Assembly: GCA_000993205.1 (NCBI GenBank) | Contig: LBVU01000004.1 | Location: forward strand, 124,113-188,112 | Source of the DNA: Candidatus Woesebacteria bacterium GW2011_GWB1_39_10 | Lineage (GTDB): Bacteria; Patescibacteriota; Microgenomatia; UBA8517 | Reading direction: 5' to 3' | Length of the DNA stretch: 64,000 bases | Part shown: positions 20,804 through 39,475 of the stretch, one piece after another | Numbering within the stretch: the stretch's first letter is position 1 | Layout: each line of letters opens with the position of its first letter | The notes under the pieces: generated by a model | Databases searched by the model: none | What the model was told of the DNA's origin: nothing | The model's input: the letters and a program-made list of their open reading frames with translations, nothing else | Translations under genes and position numbers: made by a program

Positions 20804-23255
20804 TACTCAATTTTAAATTCTTCTCGCCCGTAAATTTAACCGTTACTTGATCAGCGTCTCCCAGATAAAATCCGTTTATCATAGAAAAAACCGGCAAATG
20901 CAGGTTGGATACATCGGATTCCCATCCGCGGTCAAAATTCTGAGTATAAATAAGCCAACTGTCATCGTCGCTTAACTGGTATTCATTTGTTAAACCACCA
21001 TTTTCTTTAATTGAAACGTCGTGCCATTCGGAAAGTGATGGGTTGGAATTATCTGAAATTCCAAAACGAGACATATACGCCTCAGCCTGTTTAATGGAAT
21101 CATTAAATTCACCTTCTGAAACAACAGCAATCGTATTTAAAACTTCCAAGTTCGTATCATTTTCAATCTCATATTCAAACTTGCCGGACTTTAAGGTTCT
21201 TTGTTCGAAATTCCATGTTAGTTTTTGCTGCTTTAAAGTCCCAGATCTTTTGGCTATTACATATTTTCCATCTTTCGGAATTTCAAAAATATAGTTAATT
21301 TTTTCTCCCTTTTTTGTAGAAAATGCCAATCCGCACCCAAAATCAAAATCCCTAAACTTATAACCTCGAATTAAAAGTTCATATTTATACTTAAGGTATT
21401 GATTAGAACTATAAATAGCCCATTCTGATTTTGAAGCATCGCCTACAAATTTGAAGTACCGTTGCAAAAAACTCATAGCAAGGTCTGTGGAATTACCTCC
21501 GTTCAATACTATTTTTAAAGAGTCCGGTCTAATTTTTTCAAATATTTTGGGATCAAATTTACCGCTCTCAGCGTAAACAGCTGTCGGAATTTTACTGGTA
21601 GGGATAATGTCGGACCCGACAATAAGTGCCAGTTTCTTTACCGAATAAACTTCCGGTCTTGGATCTTCAATCCTAAAAACCGGAATCTTTGTTCCCCAAT
21701 CTTCTTTTGTAAGTCCCGGAGTCTGTGAAACCAATTTGTTTATTTCCTCCCAATTTTTTACATCGTTCCTTGTCGGATAAAGATTGCGGGGGTCACCGGA
21801 CAATATAATATATTTAACACCAAATACTCTTAGCCAGTTTACAAAACCCTGATTATTCAAAAAATTGTAAGGGTCTTCACCCTCGTTAATGGAAGCAAAT
21901 GGTCTATACGACACAAGTTGGTTAGCACTAAGGGCTGGTTTAGCTGAAGTTTCGAAAGCAACCTGTGGTTTTTCGTTAAACCATAACGTCTTGAAATTAT
22001 CGTTCACCTGATTCAAATTGTTATATATTATCTGATAATCACTGCTTTCACGCCTTGCAGATAAATTAAAGTTCATTTTTCCGATAATCGCTGGGGAAAT
22101 TAGTAAAATAAGGTATAGGTAGACCGCAACAAATACGAACCGCTTTAAGTGAATATTTCTAAATAAATTACAGGCCAAGTCAACCGTATTCCCAATTAAA
22201 ATTCCCCCCAAAAGGACCATGGGAATAAAAAACTTGCTTGAATCCCTGAAAATAGAACCGAATGGAACCCTGTTTACAAAAAATTCATACCAACTTCCCA
22301 ACGGGGGCGCGCTTCCTTTGGAAACAAAGGCAAAAAATAAAAATATCAGGGAGAAAATATAATATTTTTTATCCACCTTCCTGAACATTAATCCGCCGAA
22401 CGCCAAAGCAGGAATAAGGGAAAAGTAAAAAAACGGCTGAACGACTTTACCAAAAATGTTAGACGGCCAGTGAGGCGCAAATAAAAACAAAGAATTAAGG
22501 AGCGACGAAAGTTGGAGTTCTGTAACTGAAGTACTAAGCCCCCCCACTCCACCTTTCATTATAGGCAAGAGCCAGGAAGCATTCACGGGAATTAAAAGAA
22601 TTCCGGCCAACATTAACCAGAACAAATTTTTAACCCGGACTTCTAAAATTTGCCACAAAAATATTACCAGAAAAGACAAGGTTCCGATGCGGGGATCAAT
22701 ATAACAAAGAGTAACAGTTGCAAAAAGAGCAAGGGCAAATTTATGGATTGAAAAATTATCAAGAAACCTTTTCCAAAAAAGAACCGTAAATGGAAAAACA
22801 CCATAACTAAGAGCTATTCCCACCTGTCCGCCATCTATCAATAAAATAAAATAAGTATTCAAAAGATAAAAGAGTGAAGAAAAGAATTGCACAGTTTTTG
22901 ACAATTTTAGATATCTGGTCAAAAAATAAGGACCAAACCCGGCAAGTATTACAGACGGAAAATAAAAAAGAATTCTGACAATTGCGTCGTTTCCCAATCC
23001 AAGATATTTATTAAGGGCTCCATAAATCACCATCATTGGAGAAAGCCAAAGAGCGAGATTTCTTCCGCCAAAATCCGTACCATTTTGGGACCAAATCGAA
23101 AGCCCCGAAACAAGTTCCTTCAATCCTTCGGGGTAAAAATACGGAGCATCTCCCCAAGCCAAATGCAGATTTCTAAAAAAAGATATAAAAACAAAAAAGG
23201 AAGGGGTCAAAATCAAAAATACATAAAACAAGTTATTTATATGCTTTTTATTCAT
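20727..23255 (-). CDS. Large polytopic membrane protein (842 aa): N-terminal multi-TM domain, large extracytoplasmic domain and C-terminal TM anchor. Candidate GT-C glycosyltransferase (YfhO/AftD-like architecture)
   Basis: Hydrophobic N-terminal roughly 400 aa with acidic loop HLAWGDAPYFYPEG. Roughly 400 aa hydrophilic domain. The C-terminus ends ...INGFYLGD...ISLGSISVLLVSYLAYAIYRK (a TM helix). Confidence 0.45.
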   Translation of the reverse strand: MNKKHINNLFYVFLILTPSFFVFISFFRNLHLAWGDAPYFYPEGLKELVSGLSIWSQNGTDFGGRNLALWLSPMMVIYGALNKYLGLGNDAIVRILFYFPSVILAGFGPYFLTRYLKLSKTVQFFSSLFYLLNTYFILLIDGGQVGIALSYGVFPFTVLFWKRFLDNFSIHKFALALFATVTLCYIDPRIGTLSFLVIFLWQILEVRVKNLFWLMLAGILLIPVNASWLLPIMKGGVGGLSTSVTELQLSSLLNSLFLFAPHWPSNIFGKVVQPFFYFSLIPALAFGGLMFRKVDKKYYIFSLIFLFFAFVSKGSAPPLGSWYEFFVNRVPFGSIFRDSSKFFIPMVLLGGILIGNTVDLACNLFRNIHLKRFVFVAVYLYLILLISPAIIGKMNFNLSARRESSDYQIIYNNLNQVNDNFKTLWFNEKPQVAFETSAKPALSANQLVSYRPFASINEGEDPYNFLNNQGFVNWLRVFGVKYIILSGDPRNLYPTRNDVKNWEEINKLVSQTPGLTKEDWGTKIPVFRIEDPRPEVYSVKKLALIVGSDIIPTSKIPTAVYAESGKFDPKIFEKIRPDSLKIVLNGGNSTDLAMSFLQRYFKFVGDASKSEWAIYSSNQYLKYKYELLIRGYKFRDFDFGCGLAFSTKKGEKINYIFEIPKDGKYVIAKRSGTLKQQKLTWNFEQRTLKSGKFEYEIENDTNLEVLNTIAVVSEGEFNDSIKQAEAYMSRFGISDNSNPSLSEWHDVSIKENGGLTNEYQLSDDDSWLIYTQNFDRGWESDVSNLHLPVFSMINGFYLGDADQVTVKFTGEKNLKLSNGISLGSISVLLVSYLAYAIYRKSR

Positions 23256-25650: not shown

Positions 25651-26019
25651 TTAGGAGCTTATAAACTTAATAATTACTATTACCAAAAAACCATAAATAT
25701 AATTACCGATCAATTCCGATAACGGCAACAGGCCAAGTGAATCAAAAAAATAGGAGATTATAAATAAACCGAAACAAAAATACAAAATCGTTTTCCAACC
25801 AATTTTAAATATCTGGAATAAACTAGTCAAAATTAAAAAAACAACCAATTCCTTCGTAAAAATTAAATTAAAATAAGGTAGCTGCGAAACTAACAGCCAA
25901 AAGGACATCGTAAATATAAAGAGAATTAAGCGAACCCTATTAATGTTTATCCACACAAAAGCTTTACTTAAATAACCATCTAATAAACTATCCAAATAAC
26001 CAGGTTTAATTTTTCTCAT
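25651..26019 (-). CDS. Small hypothetical integral membrane protein (122 aa, 3-4 TM)
   Basis: Hydrophobic segments LILFIFTMSFWLLV, VVFLILTSLFQIF and YFCFGLFIISYFF. 14-bp overlap with the upstream giant gene. Confidence 0.5.
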   Translation of the reverse strand: MRKIKPGYLDSLLDGYLSKAFVWININRVRLILFIFTMSFWLLVSQLPYFNLIFTKELVVFLILTSLFQIFKIGWKTILYFCFGLFIISYFFDSLGLLPLSELIGNYIYGFLVIVIIKFISS

Positions 26020-29000
26020 TTTTTATTGTTCGTACCCAAGCTATTAAATATAATATCGCCAATATTATTATCGAAGAGATCGAAATTTTTAGACCCTTGC
26101 TAAATAATTCTTGTGGCTGGTACACCAACAACAAATCATATTGTCTACCTCCTCCAGACAATAACCACCCATTTTCATAACCATTCACTGAAAAGTGATC
26201 TGTAATCGGAGTACCGTTCGCATCTGTAAGTTTCCACAGACCATTAAATGCTTGATTAAAAATCAAAACCATATCGCCATTAAATTTGTTTGTCGTAATA
26301 TTGTATCTTGTTGGATCTATTTTTTTGTAAGTGAGAGTTGTCGCTTCGACATTAATACTATTATTTTTAACTGCATAAATTTCCGGATTAAAAATCTCAA
26401 GAACATTTAATTTAACATTTTCGGGAATGGATCTGTCGTATCTACAAAGATAAATCAATGGAACGTTCGCTCCCACAGAAGGATCAAAAAAATACTTAAA
26501 CGAGTTGCCATCAGGGTTTAACGAAACATCCATTTCAATATCACCCCTTAAGAATTCATCTGTTGATTGATTTCTCTGGCTATTCTCTTTGATATATAGT
26601 CTCATGTTCGGTAAATAGATATCAGATGATAAGGTCAAAACGTAATTTCTGTATTTATTAAAATTATTGATTTTGCCTATTACGCATCCGCGAGTTCCTA
26701 AAGGAAAGTCCACCTCTTCTTTATTGATAACTTTAAATAGGTCTGGTAAATATTGAAAAATTAAATCTAACTCTCCGGTTTTAGGAAATTCCGCTGGATC
26801 AGTAAACATCCACTTTTTATCCTCAACGTTCTTGAGATTTAAGTTTTGACCGGTGCTCAACGCCATGTCTGACGGAATGACAACTCCACCTTTGTTGTCG
26901 CTGGGCAACGTAGCCTTATCGATAAGAAGACTGTACTGACCGCTGGACGGAAGACTAATATTGTAAATTTTATTCAAATTCCATTTCCCTCCGTCCCCTA
27001 TCAATCCATCATATTGTTTTTTTAACAATGTACTTTGCCAAAGGATTTTAAACATATTATTTTTAATATCCGATTTCTCATAACCAAAATTTGAATTACT
27101 TATATAATCTCTGAAATATCTCTGAATAGGATTCACTGTTTCGTAAATTCTGGAAGCAAAATAGAAATTTGATTTCAGAGAGTTTGACTTGAAAAGTATA
27201 TTATTTATATTTTCCAAATAGTTATTCAAATCATTTAATCCCAGGTTTATATATTTTTTATCGATCTGTAAATCAATCATCGACCTTATCTCGCTCAGTT
27301 TAGTCATCGCTAAACCTATATGCGCGGCAAGTCTTGAATTTTCATCATCGACACTCGACAATATTTTTTCATTTCTTTCTTTCTTGATCGCATAAAAAGG
27401 TGAATTGGGCAACACTCTTACAGGAGGAAGGTCTGCGTGTTTCCCTAAATTTTCGACAAGACATGATTCACAGTTTAGAGGATAATATTCCTGAAGAACC
27501 AACTTATCTAAACCGTTATTTACACTCTCTGAACTCAACCAATCTTTCGTGTTGTCTTTTGAGATTATAGGTTCTTTGGATATATATATATGATCCTTGG
27601 GAACTGAAAAAAAATTATTGACCAGTCTAAACGTATTATTTTCTTCTGTGTTTTTGATACGTAAAAGTGACCATGGTCCGACTGTTTTGACAAGTTTTAA
27701 CTCGTCGTTGTCAATAAAACTTTTTACTGCTGCAAAATATTCTTCGCTTACCTCACTATCCTCAGCCTGAAAATCACTTCTTATAAATAAATAGTTTATT
27801 CCGAGTTTTTTTGAGACATCAAAAAAAACAGGGCTTTTTTGCAATAAAAGCGCAAAGAGTTTGTTTATCTTGTCTGATTCGACGGAATTATTTATTACAT
27901 CGTTGACCATGAACGAACCGTTAGCAAACAATACAGACGGCAACGGGGAAAGGCTCCAATACCCCCAGGTATAATTATCATTACCCGATCCGCCATCAAA
28001 GGCCGGTAACATTAATGCCCTTCCGGTAAAATTTGTATCTTTTAGCCAATTGTTAAACTCAGTCGCATATTCAGGAACCTTTACAAGTGTGCTTTTATCC
28101 GGCTGCCATTTAAACAAAAAGTCCCGGTTAAACATTATAAAGTTATAAAATAACCACCCGACGGCAACCGTCAATACAAAAAGCGGGCCGGAAATGAGCA
28201 TCGTATTCTTTAATCTACGACCAATCAGATTGTTAATCTTTGAAAAAATAAATTCCCCCAGTATCGACAATGAATATGCAAGAAGAATTGAATAGGAAAT
28301 TATGAACGAGGTGGCAAATTTAAAATAAGGAGACCGGAATATCGAAAACCCCGGAATTTTTTCATATAAAGCGGTGTAGACAAATCCCAACGGGGAGTTT
28401 GTCCCGGCTGTAAAAAACATTGAAATAAGTAGTAAAAATAAAAAGAAGAAAATCAGATATTTTTTATCTTTTTCTTTAACAAATAACATACCGGAAAATG
28501 ATAATATCGGAAGCAAAAAACTGACTAATACCAATATGCGATTAGTCAAATATAATCCTGCATAAGAATATTCGGGATTTGGTAAACCGCCAGTCAAATA
28601 CCATTCCGGAACGCCCTGAAATCTAAATAGATTAATAAAAAAGGTCCCTCTGCTTATATAAATAAGCCATTCCTTTCCTGCTGCAATTGTTCCCTGTCCT
28701 ACAACAACTGCGTAATCTGAGCTAATTAATATAGAAATAAAAGGCAAGATCGAATACATATTAAGCAAAACAAAAAAAACAAAACTTAAAAGACAGAAGA
28801 TTAAAGTTCTTCTAAAATAAGAAAGGTCTTTTTCCTTTTTCGCAATTATTATGGCAAATAGCAAATAAACCATTCCTGCAACAAATAAACTGCCATAAAG
28901 AGGTAAACCTAACCAGCTACCGCCATTAAAAATGGAAAAAATAACGGAAAAAATAATCGAACTTCTTAAAACCGGTTTTTTCCTGTCAAACAATATCCCC

Positions 29001-29497
29001 AAGGCAAATGTCAGGAAAAGAAGAATGACACAAACTAGTTCATACTTTGCTCTCTCTAAAATAAATATCGATTGGAATATGAAAAAATTAAAAGTTAAAA
29101 ATAATGGGAAAAAATATGGAACAAGTCTTCCCAATTTTTGTTTCAGCGAATATGAAAAAATAGAAGAAAAAATAAAAAGCATACTTAACCAAAAAAACAC
29201 CGCAACTTGATTTCCGGCGAAAGAACTTGTCCCAAATAGAGACAAAGCGTAATCAATTGAGTGGAGCATTACACTCCCAAAATGCGGTGAGTTGTCAACT
29301 CCAAAATCAATACGGTCATCCCAAGCAAAAAATCTCGTTTTTAAAAAACTTTTCGCGTCTAATGCAAGACCTGAATCGTGTCCCGCAACCACATAACCCG
29401 AGGGAACCCACATCTTGGTCAAAAACCATATTCCGATTAAAGCCACGGCAACATAAACCAGATAATGTACCAGCTCTTTGTTAAAAAGGTTTTTCAT
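26006..29497 (-). CDS. Giant polytopic membrane protein (1163 aa): N-terminal GT-C-like transmembrane domain, roughly 650-aa extracytoplasmic domain and C-terminal TM anchor. Candidate novel GT-C glycosyltransferase (AftD/YfhO-like architecture)
   Basis: The N-terminal roughly 480 aa are highly hydrophobic, with the acidic loop FFAWDDRIDFGVDNSPHFG. The long hydrophilic region is rich in N/K/S. The C-terminus ...VNGYENGWLLSGGGRQYDLLLVYQPQ...ISISSIIILAILYLIAWV is a TM helix. Confidence 0.45.
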   Translation of the reverse strand: MKNLFNKELVHYLVYVAVALIGIWFLTKMWVPSGYVVAGHDSGLALDAKSFLKTRFFAWDDRIDFGVDNSPHFGSVMLHSIDYALSLFGTSSFAGNQVAVFFWLSMLFIFSSIFSYSLKQKLGRLVPYFFPLFLTFNFFIFQSIFILERAKYELVCVILLFLTFALGILFDRKKPVLRSSIIFSVIFSIFNGGSWLGLPLYGSLFVAGMVYLLFAIIIAKKEKDLSYFRRTLIFCLLSFVFFVLLNMYSILPFISILISSDYAVVVGQGTIAAGKEWLIYISRGTFFINLFRFQGVPEWYLTGGLPNPEYSYAGLYLTNRILVLVSFLLPILSFSGMLFVKEKDKKYLIFFFLFLLLISMFFTAGTNSPLGFVYTALYEKIPGFSIFRSPYFKFATSFIISYSILLAYSLSILGEFIFSKINNLIGRRLKNTMLISGPLFVLTVAVGWLFYNFIMFNRDFLFKWQPDKSTLVKVPEYATEFNNWLKDTNFTGRALMLPAFDGGSGNDNYTWGYWSLSPLPSVLFANGSFMVNDVINNSVESDKINKLFALLLQKSPVFFDVSKKLGINYLFIRSDFQAEDSEVSEEYFAAVKSFIDNDELKLVKTVGPWSLLRIKNTEENNTFRLVNNFFSVPKDHIYISKEPIISKDNTKDWLSSESVNNGLDKLVLQEYYPLNCESCLVENLGKHADLPPVRVLPNSPFYAIKKERNEKILSSVDDENSRLAAHIGLAMTKLSEIRSMIDLQIDKKYINLGLNDLNNYLENINNILFKSNSLKSNFYFASRIYETVNPIQRYFRDYISNSNFGYEKSDIKNNMFKILWQSTLLKKQYDGLIGDGGKWNLNKIYNISLPSSGQYSLLIDKATLPSDNKGGVVIPSDMALSTGQNLNLKNVEDKKWMFTDPAEFPKTGELDLIFQYLPDLFKVINKEEVDFPLGTRGCVIGKINNFNKYRNYVLTLSSDIYLPNMRLYIKENSQRNQSTDEFLRGDIEMDVSLNPDGNSFKYFFDPSVGANVPLIYLCRYDRSIPENVKLNVLEIFNPEIYAVKNNSINVEATTLTYKKIDPTRYNITTNKFNGDMVLIFNQAFNGLWKLTDANGTPITDHFSVNGYENGWLLSGGGRQYDLLLVYQPQELFSKGLKISISSIIILAILYLIAWVRTIKNEKN

Positions 29498-33834: not shown

Positions 33835-35808
33835 TTAATAGTAATAAGGAATGTCCTTGCCCTGAATTTCTGTGAACGTAAGATTTCTAATCACTGAATT
33901 TAAAATTCGTATCTTTGCTCCTGTCGGATAACCGTCAATCATAATTTTTTGAATCGCTAGCCCACCAGGAGGTAAATATAAATTGTATGTATGGGGATAG
34001 CCATCAGCTAAAATATCAATATCTTTTGCATAAAAATTTTGATAAGTATTTCTCCTCTCCGTCATCCACCAAATTTTTATACTAACGGTGTTACCAATCA
34101 TATTTTTAGATGTTTTCTGATCGAGCAGCAATGTCAAATTTAAAACTGTCGGAACAAGGCTTGGATAACCAACTTCAGATTCCACAAAGTGATTTTTAGA
34201 ATAATCCCACCTATCAATGACTAACGGTTTTAATCTTTGTGTTAATTCTTTTCTGAAATCTTCAGTCGTCGGAACAAAGCCCAATTTTTCTGAAGCAAAA
34301 AAAGTATAAACATTTTCTAATTTATATTTACCACTTATTATAAGGTCATAAACCTCAGGAAATGTATCGACCATTTTAGTAATTCCCTCGTAATTATAAA
34401 AAATTGAAATTCCAGTCTCCCCCATACCTGCCAAAACATTATTCTTCACACGAGGCTCATCCTCAGTATCAATAAAGAAAACGGTATCTTTATCAACCTT
34501 TGGAACATTGGCCATAATTATTTTGTAAGCATTTTGTGTTGGAAAACTTACATAGTTAACAATTTCGTCCTGAACCTTTTGTGATTGAAAAATCAAATAT
34601 ACACAAAACACACCAATAAATAGATAGGCAAGAAATCTTCCATATCTTTTAGAGAAAAATAAATGGTCTTTGATAATTAAAAATAATCCTGAATAAATAA
34701 AGGTTGTTCCCACAAAAGATGGCAGCGCATAGCGGCTAATTGAATCTAAACTGTTTGTAGGATTGTAAACAAAATAACTTACGATATTACCAACAACAAC
34801 AACCAGTCCCAACAAAAGAATATTCGAAATTGTTTTGGCCTTTTTCCTAATAAAAAGACCGACTGATACAATAAACAGTGTAATCAATAATCCGTTCAGG
34901 TGAGAAAGGCTTTCCAAGGAAATTTTAATCTTAAACAAAAGCTGTAGAAAATCAGAAAAATTCTTTACCAATAAATCTGGGACAATAATATGAGAAATCA
35001 TACCAAATAAATTACCTATTGAAATCACAAATTGACCTCCCAAAAAATTTTTCAGTAGTGTCCCCATGAAGCCGGATGACTGTGCGCCTGAGGATTCCGA
35101 AGGATTTGTGTATATATGTATATACATAAATAAATAAATTACTAGAAATGGCAGAAACTTAATAATGAGGTTGATAACGTTCTTAAGACCCTTCCTAAAA
35201 CCCAGGAGAAAAATTAAGGCAAACATTATAATAACCACTCCGTGCGAACGAAGAAACAGGAATTGAATAGTTATAATGTAGAAAATCAAGGAAATGGCAT
35301 AAAATTTAGTTCCTCTTCCCAAAAGATATTTAACCAAGAGTAGAGCGGTAAGATTGATGAAAATTGCCGTTAGACTAAATTGGTAGGACTCATTAACCCT
35401 ATAAAGAGCAAAAGAAGCAATATATCCACTGGCATAAATGGTTGATGCTATAAAACCAGCCAGTTTATTTCTAGTAATTTCTTTTGCCAAAAGGTAGACG
35501 GTAAAAGCTGCAAGAAAATACAGGAAAAGGCCAATCGCAAAGTACGGCATGGCGTTAGTACCAAACAACGGATAAAGAAGGATGAACGGAGTTGCAGTGT
35601 ATTTATACGCACCCTGACCTAAAATTCCAGCTCCAATGTAGCCCACGGAAGACCCCGGGTGAACCATTTTATAAAGAAGTGTCCAATCATCAACCCACCA
35701 GTACATCAGTAACGTCTTACCGTAGGAAATGTAACTAACTAATAATAACCAGAGAAAAATCAAGTATTCGGAATATTTTTGAAAAATATGATCAAACTTT
35801 TTCAACAT
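33835..35808 (-). CDS. Large polytopic membrane protein (657 aa), candidate GT-C glycosyltransferase; member of the W-x-D-D/E-W loop paralog trio
   Basis: About 13 TM helices, then a roughly 250-aa C-terminal soluble domain. The first loop is LLMYWWVDDWTLLYKMVHPGSS. Confidence 0.45.
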   Translation of the reverse strand: MLKKFDHIFQKYSEYLIFLWLLLVSYISYGKTLLMYWWVDDWTLLYKMVHPGSSVGYIGAGILGQGAYKYTATPFILLYPLFGTNAMPYFAIGLFLYFLAAFTVYLLAKEITRNKLAGFIASTIYASGYIASFALYRVNESYQFSLTAIFINLTALLLVKYLLGRGTKFYAISLIFYIITIQFLFLRSHGVVIIMFALIFLLGFRKGLKNVINLIIKFLPFLVIYLFMYIHIYTNPSESSGAQSSGFMGTLLKNFLGGQFVISIGNLFGMISHIIVPDLLVKNFSDFLQLLFKIKISLESLSHLNGLLITLFIVSVGLFIRKKAKTISNILLLGLVVVVGNIVSYFVYNPTNSLDSISRYALPSFVGTTFIYSGLFLIIKDHLFFSKRYGRFLAYLFIGVFCVYLIFQSQKVQDEIVNYVSFPTQNAYKIIMANVPKVDKDTVFFIDTEDEPRVKNNVLAGMGETGISIFYNYEGITKMVDTFPEVYDLIISGKYKLENVYTFFASEKLGFVPTTEDFRKELTQRLKPLVIDRWDYSKNHFVESEVGYPSLVPTVLNLTLLLDQKTSKNMIGNTVSIKIWWMTERRNTYQNFYAKDIDILADGYPHTYNLYLPPGGLAIQKIMIDGYPTGAKIRILNSVIRNLTFTEIQGKDIPYYY

Positions 35809-35848
35809 AACTACTTCAAAATCTTGGGAGTTTCCAGATAAGAATCTA

Positions 35849-36010
35849 TTAAGTATAATTAACAGGCCCCCGTGTTAATGGAACAACAACCAATTCTCTT
35901 ATTATACTACCAGTATTCGATAAATCTATATTTATTTTTTGACTCCCTGAACTTGAGAAAAATAACAACCATATCACAAGAAAAGCGATAATGGAGTTCT
36001 TGTTTTGAAA
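35849..36010 (-). pseudogene. Decayed duplicate of the 3' end of a paralog of the 37004..39475 membrane-protein gene
   Basis: About 80 percent nucleotide identity between 35880-36000 and 37061-37190. One frame reads FSSSGSQKINIDLSNTGSIIRELVVVPLTRGPVNYT*, versus the C-terminus FSQVQGIKNISLDLANTGSMIRGLVVVPLSLVPVN of the 823-aa protein. The frame is lost upstream. Confidence 0.6.
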
Positions 36011-36078
36011 CAGGCTCAAAGACTATATTCTTCAAGACCTTCTTTATTCTTCGATGTATTATATACTCTGAAACAGAG

Positions 36079-36981
36079 ATGATAATTATAACGGGAGGAA
36101 ACGGGTTTGTCGGAAGTGTTTTGACTCCTCTTCTCCGGAAAAAATACAGAGGAGAAAAAATATTTATTTTGGATAAACCGAGATACGACTTGGTTACAGG
36201 CAAAAACCTGGACAAAATCCCCAAAAATCCAAGACTGGTCATTCATTTGGCGGCAGCAACCGATACCGCAAAACCCGATCACAGAACAAATGACTTGGGA
36301 ACAATAAATTTATTTCAGCATTTGAAAATCGGGCCCGGAACTCATTTTATTTTTACAAGTTCCCTGGCAGTATATTCGGGGAGAACGGGATGCGATAAAG
36401 CGATCGGCCCAAAGACTTCACCCGCAGTAAATAACAGATACGGTGCAACGAAACTCAAAGCCGAAAAAATATTGGTAAACGCAGCCAAAGAAAATGGCTT
36501 CAAACTAACGATTCTTAGGCTTCCGACAGTTTGGGGAAATAATCCCCGAAAGAATAGTTTTCTGAATTTTTTAAAGAATTTGGTTAAAAACAATTCTATT
36601 TTTGCCAGACTGAATTGGCCCGGAAAAACGGCCCTTATAAACGTAAGTGATATTGCAAAACATATTTCGGAAATATCAAAAAAGTCTCCCAAAAATACGC
36701 AAATTATTCCGCTTGCCGTGGAAAACATGACACTTGCCGCAATTTTCAAGACTTTATATTTGCAGGCGGAAAAAGATTATGGTGAAATAAAGGTTCCGAA
36801 ATTTGTTTGGAGTTTTGCAAGATTTTTAAGGCCATTCCTGGGCTATTTTGAACCTATTTTACCATCTTCTTTCTACAACTACTTTTGGCGCGCATCAATT
36901 GTTGTGGACAGCCCCCTTTGGTGTAAAGTGAACTTGAAGGGAAGAAAATTTGCAAACGCCAATCAAAGAAGAATGAAATAA
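36079..36981 (+). CDS. NAD-dependent epimerase/dehydratase-like SDR
   Basis: MIIITGGNGFVGSVL glycine-rich motif and YGATK (YxxxK). 300 aa. Confidence 0.8.
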   Translation: MIIITGGNGFVGSVLTPLLRKKYRGEKIFILDKPRYDLVTGKNLDKIPKNPRLVIHLAAATDTAKPDHRTNDLGTINLFQHLKIGPGTHFIFTSSLAVYSGRTGCDKAIGPKTSPAVNNRYGATKLKAEKILVNAAKENGFKLTILRLPTVWGNNPRKNSFLNFLKNLVKNNSIFARLNWPGKTALINVSDIAKHISEISKKSPKNTQIIPLAVENMTLAAIFKTLYLQAEKDYGEIKVPKFVWSFARFLRPFLGYFEPILPSSFYNYFWRASIVVDSPLWCKVNLKGRKFANANQRRMK

Positions 36982-37003
36982 TTGTAAAATTTTTTCCACA
37001 TAA

Positions 37004-39475
37004 CTACTTGAGTATTTTAGGACTTTGTAAGTACGAATCGAGAACTTCTATATTTACCGGAACCAAAGACAAGGGAACAACAACCAACCCTCTTATCATA
37101 CTACCGGTATTTGCCAAATCCAAACTAATATTTTTAATTCCCTGAACCTGAGAAAAATGACAAATAGAATAAAAGCGCTGATTATGTTTGGTAGAGAAAA
37201 AATCTTTTTTATCTATTGGGGACAATTTTGAATAAAAAGAATCCGGCTCACCAATCCAGATAATAAAAAGGGAAATACCATTATTCGTTAGTTGTTTTTC
37301 GCATACCATTTTTTCATTTACATTTGCGTTAGATAAAATATTTGAGAGATCAGAGAAACTTTTTGAAGATACAACTGAATAGTACTGCGCCAACGAGTCT
37401 AATCCGCTAGCGTCTGGAAGATCCCAATGGGTCAGAATATTCGAAAGTATTCCCGCTCTCAAATCGATAAAGTTCATTTGACCTTTGTTAATAGTTGTAT
37501 TTAATTTTATGTTTAACCTGGGTGTGAATACTGCGGGAAAATTAAGATCAGTTAACGTCAGGGTCGGGTTTTTGAAATATGTTAATTTGTTTATATCGTC
37601 AGTTATAATTTCCGGTACAAATAAATTGTCGATGGTTTTCCCCCAATACAAACCCCAATCTTTCAAAAATATTGCCTGAGTTTTTGGATTGCGAATTTGC
37701 TCTTTTAATACAGCAGAAAGATCCTGCTCTATTGCTCCATCATCGTAGTCTGTAAAAATAGCATAAAGATTGTCCATAAAATCATTTTTTTGGGAATCAG
37801 CTAACCCGTCCAAATACAGCTTAAGTTCATTATCGCCCCAAAAGATTCTAATTTTTGAAAAATTCCAAAACGCGGCAAAATAATATTCTGAAGGCCTATA
37901 ATTATCTTTTCGTTTGGAATAGCCGTCATCATAGAAGATATTTATGTTATTAGCGTTTACAGGAATGTGTTTTCTATAAGAATCAAAAAAGAATTGTTGC
38001 CTTGTGACAGAAACTCCTTTGGCAAAATCTAAAAAAAATGTATACCTGTCATTAATCAATTTATAACTAAGTGTAATTGACCCTAATATTATTAGCCCGA
38101 TAACAATTCGTCCAAAAGGCCTTTTTATTTTATCTACAAAAGCAATGATTTGATAAAAAATATATGACCAAATCATAATAGCTCCAGCGCACGCAACATA
38201 TGAAAGGTGATGGGTGCGTGTCGCAATATCTATCTCACGGTCCGTTGATGGAAGATGGGGAGCAAATAGAACATAGAATAAAATCGATGTTGTAAGCCAA
38301 AAAAAACCGATAGATAAGGTTAGTGGAATTTTTTTTCTACGAAGTTTTGTGAATAAACAATAAAACAAGAAAAGAGCCAAAAAAAGAAATCCCATATAGA
38401 CAGTTAATGTTCCTGGATTAATCGTTGAATTTGTCCACCTACTTAAAGATATATAAAATTCAACCGGTACTGAGGAAATACCAATCATGTACAAATATAT
38501 CCTGTAAAAGGAGGCTGTGGTTACTTCGGTCTTGATATTTCTAATTTGCCATAGACCTCTGATAGTAAGGAAGAGAACAATCGGTAAATAGTAAGGAATC
38601 TGATTTAATAACAAGTTTTTTAACCATATAAATATTTTTTTTGGATTAAAAAATTCTACCGATACTAAAAATATTACAATTGACATAAACGGCAAAATAA
38701 AACCGACCCGCGCGATACCAGACATGAATGCAGGCAAAATCAAAAAAGCTGAAAGGTAGGGAATATTCGTACCCCCTTTTTTCCTAATTTCCCAAACGCA
38801 AGCAACTACTGAGAGACAAACCAAAAACGCCTGCCAAGCTATATTTATGGGGTTCATATAATATTCAAAAGCTTCAAATGATATTGTAGTAGTCGAAACA
38901 AAAAAGGCCGCCATCAATCCAATATAATTATTTTTTGAAATATATTTTGTCAATAGAAAAACCCCAACGGCAAAAAGAAAATGTAGAAGCAGTATTGAGA
39001 ACTGGTATGGAATTATCGAATAATCAAAAAAATGCCTAATCACCTCCCATGTCCACGCCGGAAAAGATGACAGCCAGGGCCCCCAAGTAAAAAAACTATA
39101 ACCACCCCCGATACGATTTAAAAATAAATAGAAATCATCTTTCCAAAAATATGTAGAAAATTGCTTAAAACGAAAAACAAATATCGTGATAAATAAAAAA
39201 ATAATTCCGTACCAATCTTGTTTAGAGATCTTAATTCTAAAATTCTTATAAAAATTTCTTATATACAGCACGGATAGCAATGCAAAAAAAAATATTCCAA
39301 TTATCTCGGGCATGATTTTTGCAGCAGGTAATCCACCATATTTATTGAAAAATTTCCAAGATGATTGTGAATAATTTATTGCAACGAAAACCATTGAAAT
39401 AATCCCATAGAATAATTTATTTGATATTCCACAACATCTCTTGATTTCTTTAAAGACGGTTAGAAATTTGATCAT
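37004..39475 (-). CDS. Large polytopic membrane protein (823 aa), candidate GT-C glycosyltransferase; paralog trio member
   Basis: About 14 TM helices in the N-terminal 480 aa, then a roughly 330-aa soluble domain. The first loop is FSTYFWKDDFYLFLNRIGGGY. Confidence 0.45.
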   Translation of the reverse strand: MIKFLTVFKEIKRCCGISNKLFYGIISMVFVAINYSQSSWKFFNKYGGLPAAKIMPEIIGIFFFALLSVLYIRNFYKNFRIKISKQDWYGIIFLFITIFVFRFKQFSTYFWKDDFYLFLNRIGGGYSFFTWGPWLSSFPAWTWEVIRHFFDYSIIPYQFSILLLHFLFAVGVFLLTKYISKNNYIGLMAAFFVSTTTISFEAFEYYMNPINIAWQAFLVCLSVVACVWEIRKKGGTNIPYLSAFLILPAFMSGIARVGFILPFMSIVIFLVSVEFFNPKKIFIWLKNLLLNQIPYYLPIVLFLTIRGLWQIRNIKTEVTTASFYRIYLYMIGISSVPVEFYISLSRWTNSTINPGTLTVYMGFLFLALFLFYCLFTKLRRKKIPLTLSIGFFWLTTSILFYVLFAPHLPSTDREIDIATRTHHLSYVACAGAIMIWSYIFYQIIAFVDKIKRPFGRIVIGLIILGSITLSYKLINDRYTFFLDFAKGVSVTRQQFFFDSYRKHIPVNANNINIFYDDGYSKRKDNYRPSEYYFAAFWNFSKIRIFWGDNELKLYLDGLADSQKNDFMDNLYAIFTDYDDGAIEQDLSAVLKEQIRNPKTQAIFLKDWGLYWGKTIDNLFVPEIITDDINKLTYFKNPTLTLTDLNFPAVFTPRLNIKLNTTINKGQMNFIDLRAGILSNILTHWDLPDASGLDSLAQYYSVVSSKSFSDLSNILSNANVNEKMVCEKQLTNNGISLFIIWIGEPDSFYSKLSPIDKKDFFSTKHNQRFYSICHFSQVQGIKNISLDLANTGSMIRGLVVVPLSLVPVNIEVLDSYLQSPKILK

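What the first reader, a model, noticed from the sequence alone, without database searches (positions are those of the whole stretch)
35849..36010. Decayed duplicate of a paralog 3' end sitting in the promoter region of the 657-aa gene
Nucleotides 35880-36000 are about 80 percent identical to 37061-37190 (the last roughly 130 bp of the 823-aa gene). One frame still encodes FSSSGSQKINIDLSNTGSIIRELVVVPLT, which mirrors the genuine C-terminus FSQVQGIKNISLDLANTGSMIRGLVVVPLS. Further upstream the frame is destroyed. This is a footprint of a past tandem duplication or gene conversion among the paralogs. It now occupies the 270-bp region upstream of 33835..35808, so it may have been co-opted as promoter or leader sequence.
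Basis: seen in the sequence. Interest (0 to 1): 0.55.

Follow-up and report, generated by a model that had tools for sequence, protein, structure and literature searches.

The report
Relic of a lost glycosyltransferase-like gene
The roughly 190 bp upstream of the 657-aa gene are the broken tail of a second, now lost copy of the neighbouring 823-aa membrane-protein gene, an ordinary rearrangement scar in a cell-surface sugar gene cluster of an uncultivated groundwater bacterium, and part of it may now serve as the upstream control region of the next gene.

Summary
The repeat is longer than reported: 35780-35998 against 36974-37190, about 77% identical. It covers a whole gene junction: the last ~62 codons of an 823-type gene, TAG, TT, then ATG and the first ~8 codons of a 657-type gene. 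The two copies bracket an intact opposite-strand NAD-dependent epimerase gene.

Differences between the copies fall mainly on third codon positions (12/5/25; pS 0.69, pN 0.16). The fragment also keeps family-consensus residues that the resident gene has lost. So it is the truncated, twice-frameshifted tail of a second 823-family gene that was functional for a long time. A copy dead at duplication is rejected (P<1e-6). Gene conversion among the window's paralogs is implausible, because they share only ~22-26% amino-acid identity.

Two other Candidatus Woesebacteria lineages share the architecture, and a fourth keeps the relic. No intact parent gene was found. The distal 63 bp are deleted in two lineages. 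Two proximal blocks, one containing a TATAAT and one just before the ATG, are invariant. This is suggestive, not proven, evidence for a promoter or translation-initiation role. It is an ordinary gene relic of low to moderate interest.

The parts
35811..35998 (-). Relic of the 3' end of a lost 823-family gene (823'): the last ~62 codons with two 1-nt frameshifts, plus the native stop TAG at 35811-35813. This is copy A of the junction repeat.
   Evidence: 77% nt identity to 37004-37190. The corrected peptide is 67% identical to the resident C-terminus and 33-60% identical to 16 other family members. tblastn with the 823-aa protein hits 35947-35858.
35936..36026 (-). A 91-nt segment absent from the related lineages L022 and L025. 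It holds the distal part of the relic (CYFSQVQGVK codons) plus 28 nt of unrelated spacer. It is dispensable.
   Evidence: Alignments. The deletion is derived, because the missing stretch is homologous to copy B.
35889..35932 (-). Invariant block 1 of the relic (codons INIDLSNTGSIIREL). It contains a perfect TATAAT at 35906-35901 on the strand of the 657-aa gene and is a candidate promoter.
   Evidence: No change in three lineages. The peptide is identical in a fourth lineage, P0035. The sequence was read.
35846..35888 (-). Variable middle of the relic. All 9 internal substitutions or indels among the three lineages fall here. It contains the + strand TATAAT-like hexamer 35854-35859, which is not conserved.
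   Evidence: span 43 nt, permutation P = 0.0007.
35809..35845 (-). Invariant block 2: the 37 nt directly upstream of the 657-aa gene's ATG (relic codons DSYLETPKILK*, then TT). It is the presumed translation-initiation region.
   Evidence: No change in three lineages.
33835..35808 (-). The 657-aa gene, a predicted membrane protein (KKQ91809.1; UniRef calls it 'Glycosyltransferase RgtA/B/C/D-like domain-containing protein'). Its first ~8 codons belong to copy A of the repeat.
   Evidence: It has no Pfam hit.
36079..36981 (+). An intact 300-aa NAD-dependent epimerase/dehydratase-family gene bracketed by the two repeat copies. Its stop codon (36979-36981) lies inside copy B.
   Evidence: Pfam PF01370, E = 2.7e-20. 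96.6-97% nt identical in L022 and L025. The C-terminus differs after GRKFA between lineages.
36974..37003 (-). Relic of the 5' start of a lost 657-type gene (657'): ATG at 37001-36999, reading MWKKFYNYFILL*, directly after the stop of the 823-aa gene. This is the tail of copy B.
   Evidence: Repeat family D2 (35783-35846 vs 36976-37039, 72%). It evolves fast: 7/29 differences from L022, and in L022 and L025 the ATG has become CTG.
37004..37190 (-). The genuine 3' end (last ~62 codons plus TAG) of the intact 823-aa gene. This is the coding part of copy B.
37004..39475 (-). The 823-aa gene. It belongs to a rare family (17 clusters in 5.8 billion proteins) of large membrane proteins. In some relatives the protein is fused to an N-terminal GT2 domain.
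36058..36085 (-). A promoter-like site, TTATCA-16-TATAAT, pointing toward the 657-aa gene and overlapping the epimerase start codon. If used, the whole relic would be a ~240-nt 5' leader.
   Evidence: a consensus match only; the number of sites is not above shuffles. Both hexamers are conserved in L022 and L025.

Best explanation
The fragment is the truncated tail of a second gene of the 823-aa family (823'). That gene was a functional, separately evolving copy, either an old paralog or a copy imported from a related lineage.

The locus once held two '823-type -> 657-type' gene pairs, each joined by the same tight junction (..PKILK-TAG-TT-ATG..). The inner members of the two pairs were lost by deletion or replacement. 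About 30 nt of the 657' start remain after the intact 823-aa gene, and about 190 nt of the 823' end remain in front of the intact 657-aa gene. An opposite-strand epimerase gene now sits between the two relics. The result is a degenerate 210-bp direct repeat of the junction bracketing the epimerase.

This happened before the sampled Woesebacteria lineages split. Since then both scars have been whittled by further deletions: 91 nt in L022 and L025, and about 85 nt differing on the other side.

Shown: homology, truncation, frameshifts, former coding constraint, shared architecture, ongoing erosion.

Inferred: the proximal ~125 nt of the relic persist because they are the native upstream region of the 657-aa gene. 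That region would hold its translation-initiation region (35809-35845) and probably a promoter around the TATAAT at 35906-35901. The gene needs its own promoter now that the epimerase cuts it off from the upstream operon.
For: Repeat and significance.

The junction extends through the stop into the next gene's start.

Former coding constraint: differences by codon position are 12/5/25, pS 0.69, pN 0.16, dN/dS about 0.09. A copy dead at duplication predicts pS about 0.25, and 23.5 of 34 synonymous sites differ, P<1e-6. The fragment retains family-consensus residues that the resident gene lost (CYFS, INIDL, PLT, ETP).

A direct 823-like -> 657-like junction with a 4-nt overlap exists in the two closest outgroup loci, L010 and L017. 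Tandem 823-like genes exist in L021.

L022 and L025 share the 823 | epimerase(-) | relic | 657 architecture. The peptide P0035 shows the relic in a fourth lineage.

Erosion by deletions.

Heterogeneous conservation: all 9 internal changes lie in 35846-35888 (permutation P = 0.0007). The 81 invariant nt were expected to carry 7-11 changes at the synonymous rate of the neighbouring genes. The other spacer pieces evolve fast: 5/52 and 7/29. The minus-strand TATAAT hexamers are conserved, and the + strand one is not.
Against: No intact 823' was found in any relative or in the 5.8-billion-protein database, so the two-pair ancestor is inferred, not observed.

The constraint signal rests on only three lineages, and the blocks were chosen after looking at the data. 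Over the whole relic the signal is weak or absent: L022 vs L025 gives 7/128 against pS 0.035, and window vs L025 gives P = 0.07. Identical runs of 74-113 nt also occur in the neighbouring coding DNA.

The promoter-like sites are plain consensus matches, no more frequent than in shuffled sequence (7 vs 4.9 +/- 1.9). The -35 region upstream of the internal TATAAT is poor. There are no transcription data.

How the epimerase came to lie between the relics is unknown.
Confidence: 0.7

Rival explanations
1. The origin is the same as in the best explanation, but the relic has no present function. It is leftover DNA that has not yet been deleted, and the two invariant blocks reflect small sample size and close relatedness.
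For: Whole-relic divergence is not clearly below the synonymous rate once the third lineage is added. The distal part has been deleted in L022 and L025. The ORF state differs in every lineage. There is no RNA structure signal (z = 0.27) and no Rfam match. Promoter-like matches are not enriched.
Against: The changes cluster in 43 of 128 nt (P = 0.0007). There are no changes in 81 nt where 7-11 are expected. Other non-coding pieces in the same spacer differ at 10-24%. The 657-aa gene must also have a translation-initiation region in the last ~40 nt.
Confidence: 0.3
2. The ~210-bp junction was duplicated at the moment the epimerase gene was inserted into a single 823|657 junction, for example by staggered-break repair, tandem duplication plus insertion, or Campbell-type integration of a circle carrying the same sequence. 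Copy A would then have been a dead pseudogene from the start.
For: The R-X-R geometry: direct repeats of the exact junction flank one foreign-looking, opposite-strand gene. The direct junction without the epimerase occurs in L010 and L017.
Against: The differences are strongly biased to third codon positions (12/5/25), with pS 0.69 against pN 0.16. A dead-on-arrival copy predicts pS about 0.25 (P<1e-6). The relic keeps ancestral family residues that the resident copy has lost. There is no transposase, and no inverted repeats frame the insert. One variant stays possible but needs an odd donor structure: integration of a circle from an already diverged lineage.
Confidence: 0.07
3. The relic is still translated as a small protein or upstream ORF (about 30-48 aa containing INIDLSNTGSIIRELVVVPLT). 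Termination at or near the native TAG, 2 nt before the ATG, would help ribosomes start on the 657-aa gene.
For: In a fourth lineage the relic is an uninterrupted 48-codon ORF with an ATG start that runs to the native stop (P0035). The core 21-22 residues are identical in all four lineages. The one nucleotide change at the edge of this core in L025 (GTT->GTG) is synonymous. With only about a quarter of sites free to vary, a coding constraint would also explain the invariance of block 1.
Against: There is no shared start codon. The N-termini and C-termini differ in every lineage: two frameshifts in the window, an early TAG in L022, an internal TAG in L025. In three of the four lineages the reading frame does not reach the native stop, so coupling cannot be general. 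No convincing ribosome-binding site precedes the candidate starts (sequence read).
Confidence: 0.1
4. The similarity is a gene-conversion tract copied between the paralogous genes of the window.
For: There are long identical runs between the two copies (ggaacaacaaccaa and others).
Against: The 823, 657 and 587 proteins are only 22-26% identical, and only in the N-terminal membrane part (E = 3e-5 and 0.048). That is far too divergent for conversion. The fragment lies in non-coding DNA, is only 77% identical to its sole possible donor, and differs mostly at synonymous positions.
Confidence: 0.02

Closest known systems
Gene remnants at segment junctions of bacterial surface-polysaccharide (O-antigen/capsule) gene clusters (recalled from general knowledge of enterobacterial O-antigen cluster evolution; not looked up here)
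   Same: It is a truncated piece of a sugar-pathway or transferase gene sitting between intact genes of a glycan locus. The locus is mosaic between related strains: identity to L022 runs 70% / 94% / 97% / 96% / 65-80% / 83% in blocks. Gene content varies between relatives.
   Different: The host is an uncultivated CPR bacterium (Candidatus Woesebacteria). The genes are an uncharacterised family with no Pfam model. There is no IS element or H-repeat at the junction. The two relics form a matched pair that duplicates one gene junction.
Ordinary bacterial pseudogene fragments (truncated and frameshifted relics removed by deletion bias)
   Same: It has homology to a functional gene, is truncated, has two 1-nt frameshifts, shows lineage-specific stops, and is being eroded stepwise by deletions of 85-91 nt.
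   Different: Two sub-blocks of the relic have not changed in three lineages while the middle has changed. This is not expected for purely neutral decay.
Internal operon promoters and translation-initiation regions embedded in the 3' end of the upstream gene (general knowledge)
   Same: The 657-aa gene's ATG lies 2 nt after the upstream gene's stop, so its ribosome-binding region, and possibly a promoter, were encoded inside the upstream gene's last codons. Exactly this part is what survives.
   Different: The upstream gene is gone, so the element would be an exapted relic rather than an embedded one. Promoter activity has not been shown.
Direct repeats left by Campbell-type integration or target-site duplication
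   Same: Two direct copies of one sequence flank a single inserted-looking gene.
   Different: The copies had diverged as functional coding sequences. The repeat is ~210 bp, not 2-14 bp. There is no recombinase or transposase and there are no terminal inverted repeats.

Membership tests
Pseudogene / gene relic | Significant sequence homology to a functional gene | tested here: met
   77% nt identity over ~200 nt, score 126 vs 21.7 +/- 2.6 in shuffles. BLAST E = 5e-23. The peptide is 67% identical to the 823-aa C-terminus.
Pseudogene / gene relic | The reading frame is disrupted or truncated so that the original product cannot be made | tested here: met
   Homology stops at ~35998, so about 760 of ~823 codons are missing. 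There are two 1-nt indels. L022 and L025 carry further stops or deletions.
Pseudogene / gene relic | It derives from a sequence that once evolved under protein-coding constraint | tested here: met
   Differences by codon position are 12/5/25, pS 0.69 vs pN 0.16. Dead-on-arrival is rejected at P<1e-6. Family-consensus residues are retained.
Pseudogene / gene relic | Neutral evolution since inactivation | tested here: inconclusive
   The middle 43 nt and the distal part behave neutrally or are deleted. Two blocks totalling 81 nt are invariant in three lineages.
Recent tandem or segmental duplication | The copies diverged only after one of them lost function, so differences are spread evenly over codon positions in the dead copy | tested here: not met
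Transposon/IS insertion with target-site duplication | A short (2-14 bp) duplication, terminal inverted repeats and a transposase | tested here: not met
   The repeat is ~210 bp. The only gene between the copies is an epimerase. No inverted repeats frame the insert.
Gene conversion between paralogs | Donor and acceptor are similar enough for homologous pairing, and the tract is near-identical | tested here: not met
   The paralogs are 22-26% identical at protein level. The tract is 77% identical, with differences at synonymous sites.
Sigma-70-type promoter | -35 and -10 hexamers with 16-18 nt spacing | tested here: inconclusive
   The minus-strand site 36085-36058, TTATCA-16-TATAAT, matches 10/12. 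The internal TATAAT at 35906-35901 has at best a 3/6 match at -35 (sequence). The site count is not above shuffles.
Sigma-70-type promoter | Conservation of the hexamers in related lineages | tested here: met
   Both minus-strand -10 hexamers are unchanged in L022 and L025. The + strand candidate at 35854-35859 carries two substitutions, so it is not conserved.
Sigma-70-type promoter | A mapped transcription start | not testable with these tools
   No transcript data are available.
Structured cis-regulatory RNA leader (riboswitch, attenuator) | A stable or conserved secondary structure, or a match to a known family | tested here: not met
   Fold z-score 0.27. No Rfam match at E <= 1. No terminator-like sites.
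GT-C-type membrane glycosyltransferase (for the parent 823/657 genes) | A match to a GT-C family model or fold | tested here: inconclusive
   No Pfam hit for the 823, 657 or 587 proteins even at E <= 5. Indirect hints: a weak PMT_2 hit on the 587-like proteins of L022 and L025; GT2 fusions in 823 homologs; the UniRef name 'RgtA/B/C/D-like' for the 657 protein; and a YxWxDD motif. No structure was predicted.

The most novel reading that the evidence does not exclude
Former coding sequence has been exapted. After the 823' gene was lost, about 125 nt of its last codons were kept under selection as the promoter and translation-initiation region of the 657-aa gene. In one lineage they also form a 48-codon upstream ORF that ends 2 nt before the ATG. 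This would be a datable example, in an uncultivated CPR bacterium, of a regulatory region born from the tail of a dead gene.
Probability: 0.4. Interest if true: 0.3.

Novelty: new member of a known kind. Interest (0 to 1): 0.2.

Why it matters
The main value is for annotation and locus history. It explains an unusually long (270-bp) intergenic region in a compact CPR genome. It shows that small ORFs called on this spacer, such as the 48-aa P0035, are relic-derived. It also documents that the surface-glycan locus of these Woesebacteria was built by module duplication or import, reciprocal gene loss and recombination, with a mosaic identity pattern and ongoing deletions.

If the conserved sub-blocks prove to be the promoter and initiation region of the 657-aa gene, this would be a tidy example of regulatory DNA derived from a dead gene's 3' end. 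It does not open a new kind of system or mechanism.

Tried and rejected
1. Near-identical contigs (19 contigs, L001-L008 and L026; 99.9-100% identical) gave no informative variation in the fragment.
2. RNA structure for the leader was rejected: MFE z = 0.27 and no Rfam hit.
3. The + strand promoter-like site 35831-35859, which faces the epimerase, was rejected as conserved, because its -10 carries two substitutions in L022 and L025.
4. I tested whether L022's extra ~85 nt after the 823-like gene holds a longer 657' relic. It does not: similarity is limited to ~17-30 nt.
5. A two-lineage test suggested whole-relic constraint (3/127 vs pS 0.107, P = 4e-4). The third lineage weakened this to a block-specific signal.
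6. The 48-nt spacer upstream of the 60%-identical 657 homolog in L023 matches relic positions 35926-35898 at 24/29. That is above all 2000 shuffles, but 2 of 336 real 48-mers score as high. I kept it as suggestive only.
7. A search for an intact parent gene using the corrected relic peptide found only another copy of the relic.
8. An active recombination switch that excises the epimerase is considered unlikely. The longest identical run between the copies is ~14 nt, and no excised variant appears among the contigs seen.
9. Literature searches for this locus or this type of relic in CPR bacteria returned nothing specific.

Full report
**1. What is in the sequence**

The window has 35.6% G+C. 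The region is a polysaccharide-type gene cluster read mostly on the minus strand. In order it encodes an asparagine synthase, a GT1 glycosyltransferase, two methyltransferases, a 587-aa protein, an 823-aa protein (37004-39475), the 657-aa protein (33835-35808), then GT1, UDP-glucose dehydrogenase and so on. Between the 823-aa and 657-aa genes lies an intact 300-aa NAD-dependent epimerase/dehydratase-family gene on the opposite strand (36079-36981; PF01370, E = 2.7e-20).

The organism is a Candidatus Woesebacteria bacterium (CPR/Microgenomates) from groundwater. The 657-aa protein is KKQ91809.1. Locus L026 from GCA_000998925.1 is 100% identical to the window.

**2. The observation**

- 35880-36000 aligns with 37074-37190 at 93/115 = 80.9%.
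- A local alignment of the wider region scores 126, against 21.7 +/- 2.6 for shuffles.
- It is the only significant internal repeat in the 64 kb (E = 5e-23).

The repeat is longer than reported: 35780-35998 against 36974-37190, 154/201 = 77% identical, with an offset of 1193-1195 nt. In coding orientation both copies read 'last ~62 codons of an 823-type gene - TAG - TT - ATG - first ~8 codons of a 657-type gene'.
- Copy B is the real end of the 823-aa gene followed by a dead start, MWKKFYNYFILL*.
- Copy A is a dead 823-type end followed by the real start of the 657-aa gene, MLKKFDHIF.

So the repeated unit is a gene junction, and its two copies bracket the epimerase gene. The epimerase's stop codon falls inside copy B.

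The correct conceptual translation of copy A needs two 1-nt frame corrections:
- Copy A: CYFSQVQGVK/INIDLSNTGSIIRELVVVPLTRGPVN/LIDSYLETPKILK*
- Resident gene: CHFSQVQGIKNISLDLANTGSMIRGLVVVPLSLVPVNIEVLDSYLQSPKILK*

**3. What the fragment was**

The 42 substitutions between the copies fall 12/5/25 on codon positions 1/2/3. Nei-Gojobori gives pS = 0.69 and pN = 0.16. If copy A had been dead since the duplication, the observed pN would predict pS of about 0.25. Seeing 23.5 of 34 synonymous sites differ has P<1e-6.

I aligned the corrected peptide with the C-termini of all 17 database clusters of this rare family. It is closest to the resident 823-aa protein (67%), and next to P0002 and P0004 (60%). 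It also retains consensus residues that the resident copy has lost: CYFS, INIDL, PLT, ETP.

The fragment is therefore the tail of a distinct 823-family gene (823') that evolved under purifying selection for a long time and was truncated comparatively recently.

The window's three large proteins are only very distant paralogs: 22-23% identity in a global alignment, BLAST E = 3e-5 for 823 vs 657 (limited to the N-terminal membrane part with a YxWxDD motif), and E = 0.048 for 823 vs 587. Gene conversion among them is not a viable source.

**4. Relatives**

- In the two closest outgroup loci, L010 (P0003) and L017 (P0002), the 823-like gene is followed directly, with a 4-nt overlap, by an ~880-aa gene whose N-terminal 550 residues are 657-like. 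The tight 823->657 junction is therefore a normal state.
- Other relatives have different content after the 823-like gene (L011, L014, L018, L019).
- L024 has an 823-like gene, a methyltransferase, then a 657-like gene.
- L021 has two tandem 823-like genes.
- Two closer lineages share the exact architecture of the window. L022 has its 657 ortholog at 88% aa identity. L025 is the other. Both read 823-like | epimerase(-) | relic | 657-like.
- A fourth lineage is known only from a called 48-aa ORF, P0035 (MKKVLKNINIDLSNTGSIIRELVVVPLTRGLVKIDLINSYLETPKILK), on the contig of P0034.
- No intact 823' was found anywhere.

Nucleotide identity between the window and L022 is mosaic: about 70% for the 587 gene, 94% for the 823 gene, 97.5% for the epimerase, 95-98% for the relic and the 5' two-thirds of the 657 gene, 65-80% for the 657 3' third, and 83% for GT1. 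This indicates recombination within the locus.

**5. Erosion**

L022 and L025 lack 91 nt (window 36026-35936), including the distal relic codons. Because the missing stretch is homologous to copy B, this is a derived deletion.

Conversely, the window lacks about 85 nt that L022 and L025 have between the 823 stop and the epimerase 3' end. The epimerase C-termini differ after GRKFA.

The 657' start relic differs at 7 of 29 sites between the window and L022 and has lost its ATG in L022 and L025.

**6. Is the relic used now?**

Window vs L022 gives 3/127 differences in the shared relic. This compares with pS of 0.067 (epimerase) and 0.134 (657 5' part), and with 5/52 in the rest of the spacer.

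Adding L025 removes a whole-relic signal: L022 vs L025 gives 7/128 against pS 0.035. It does reveal structure, though. All 9 internal changes lie in 35846-35888 (permutation P = 0.0007). Block 35889-35932 and block 35809-35845 are invariant, with 7-11 changes expected over these 81 nt at the synonymous rate. That last comparison is post hoc.
- Block 1 contains a perfect TATAAT (35906-35901) on the 657 strand.
- Block 2 is the 37 nt before the ATG.
- A second conserved promoter-like site, TTATCA-16-TATAAT, lies at 36085-36058.
- The + strand candidate has its -10 at 35854-35859. This is hit by two substitutions and is not conserved.

Promoter-like matches are not more frequent than in shuffles. 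There is no RNA-structure signal (z = 0.27) and no Rfam match.

The ORF state of the relic differs in each lineage: two frameshifts in the window, an early stop in L022, a restored frame with an internal TAG in L025, and an intact ORF in P0035. A conserved small protein is therefore unlikely, but it is not excluded for the core 21 residues.

**7. Mechanism**

Shown: this is a relic of a once-functional 823-family gene. It is paired with a relic of a 657-type start. Both flank the epimerase. The arrangement is older than the split of at least three lineages and is being eroded by deletions.

Inferred: the locus once carried two 823->657 modules, from duplication or import, and lost the inner member of each. 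The proximal relic persists because it is the native upstream region of the 657-aa gene. That gene needs its own expression signals now that the opposite-strand epimerase separates it from the upstream operon.

Alternatives are listed under rivals: a functionless leftover, a dead-on-arrival junction duplication, a translated upstream ORF, and gene conversion.

**8. Comparison and verdict**

This is an ordinary gene relic of the kind seen at junctions in mosaic surface-polysaccharide clusters (general knowledge). Here it occurs in a CPR bacterium and involves an uncharacterised, rare membrane-protein family.

It is a new example of a known kind, not a new kind. Interest is low to moderate. The most interesting surviving reading is exaptation of the dead gene's last codons as promoter and initiation region, with a probability of about 0.4.

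Noticed in passing
window 37218-37377 and 36801-36809 (variants in L001 and L005): Contigs that are otherwise 99.96-99.97% identical carry a nonsense change, S700*, in the 823-aa gene. L001 adds four clustered non-synonymous SNPs in codons 732-753. L005 adds W244* and two adjacent changes in the epimerase. Every SNP in 14 kb falls in these two gene ends. This could be strain-level pseudogenisation or an assembly/consensus artefact.
   Followed up: partly
window 33838-34500 vs L022: The 3' third of the 657-aa gene is far more diverged from L022 (65-80% nt, pS 0.63, pN 0.13) than its 5' two-thirds (95-98%). This suggests a recombinational swap of the C-terminal domain between lineages.
   Followed up: partly
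window about 39410-39424 (boundary of the 587-aa and 823-aa genes): Identity to L022 jumps sharply from about 50-70% (587 gene) to about 85-96% (823 gene) at the gene boundary. This looks like another recombination breakpoint in the locus.
   Followed up: no
window 37004-39475; proteins P0004, P0006, P0007, P0010, P0013-P0015: The 823-aa family is very rare: 17 clusters among 5.8 billion proteins, with no Pfam model. In about half of the homologs the protein is fused to an N-terminal GT2 (PF00535) domain. This hints that the family uses a polyprenyl-phosphate-sugar made by that domain.
   Followed up: no
window 26006-29497 (-) and about 22245-22418: The 1163-aa protein matches the GT-C_AftD N-terminal domain (E = 1.3e-6, just above the Pfam cut-off). 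A 61-aa stretch of it (41% identity, E = 5e-6) recurs at 22245-22418, which may be another paralog or relic further along the window.
   Followed up: no
L023 391-438: The 48-nt spacer upstream of a 60%-identical 657 homolog contains GATTATACCGCATACTGGTGGTGCAATAA. This matches relic positions 35926-35898 at 24/29 and may be an even more eroded remnant of the same 823-type codons (NTGSII).
   Followed up: partly
L022 9054-9842: L022 carries an extra GT2-like 191-aa gene and a 56-aa ORF between the 657 ortholog and GT1. The window lacks these, showing further gene-content flux in the locus.
   Followed up: no
L017 5163-5255: The end of the reading frame after the 879-aa 657-like gene in L017 encodes ..PVKIQLLESIIESPKVYK, which weakly resembles the 823-family C-terminal motif (..PVSI..L.S.LE.PKILK). 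The C-terminal module may be shared among several gene families of these loci.
   Followed up: no
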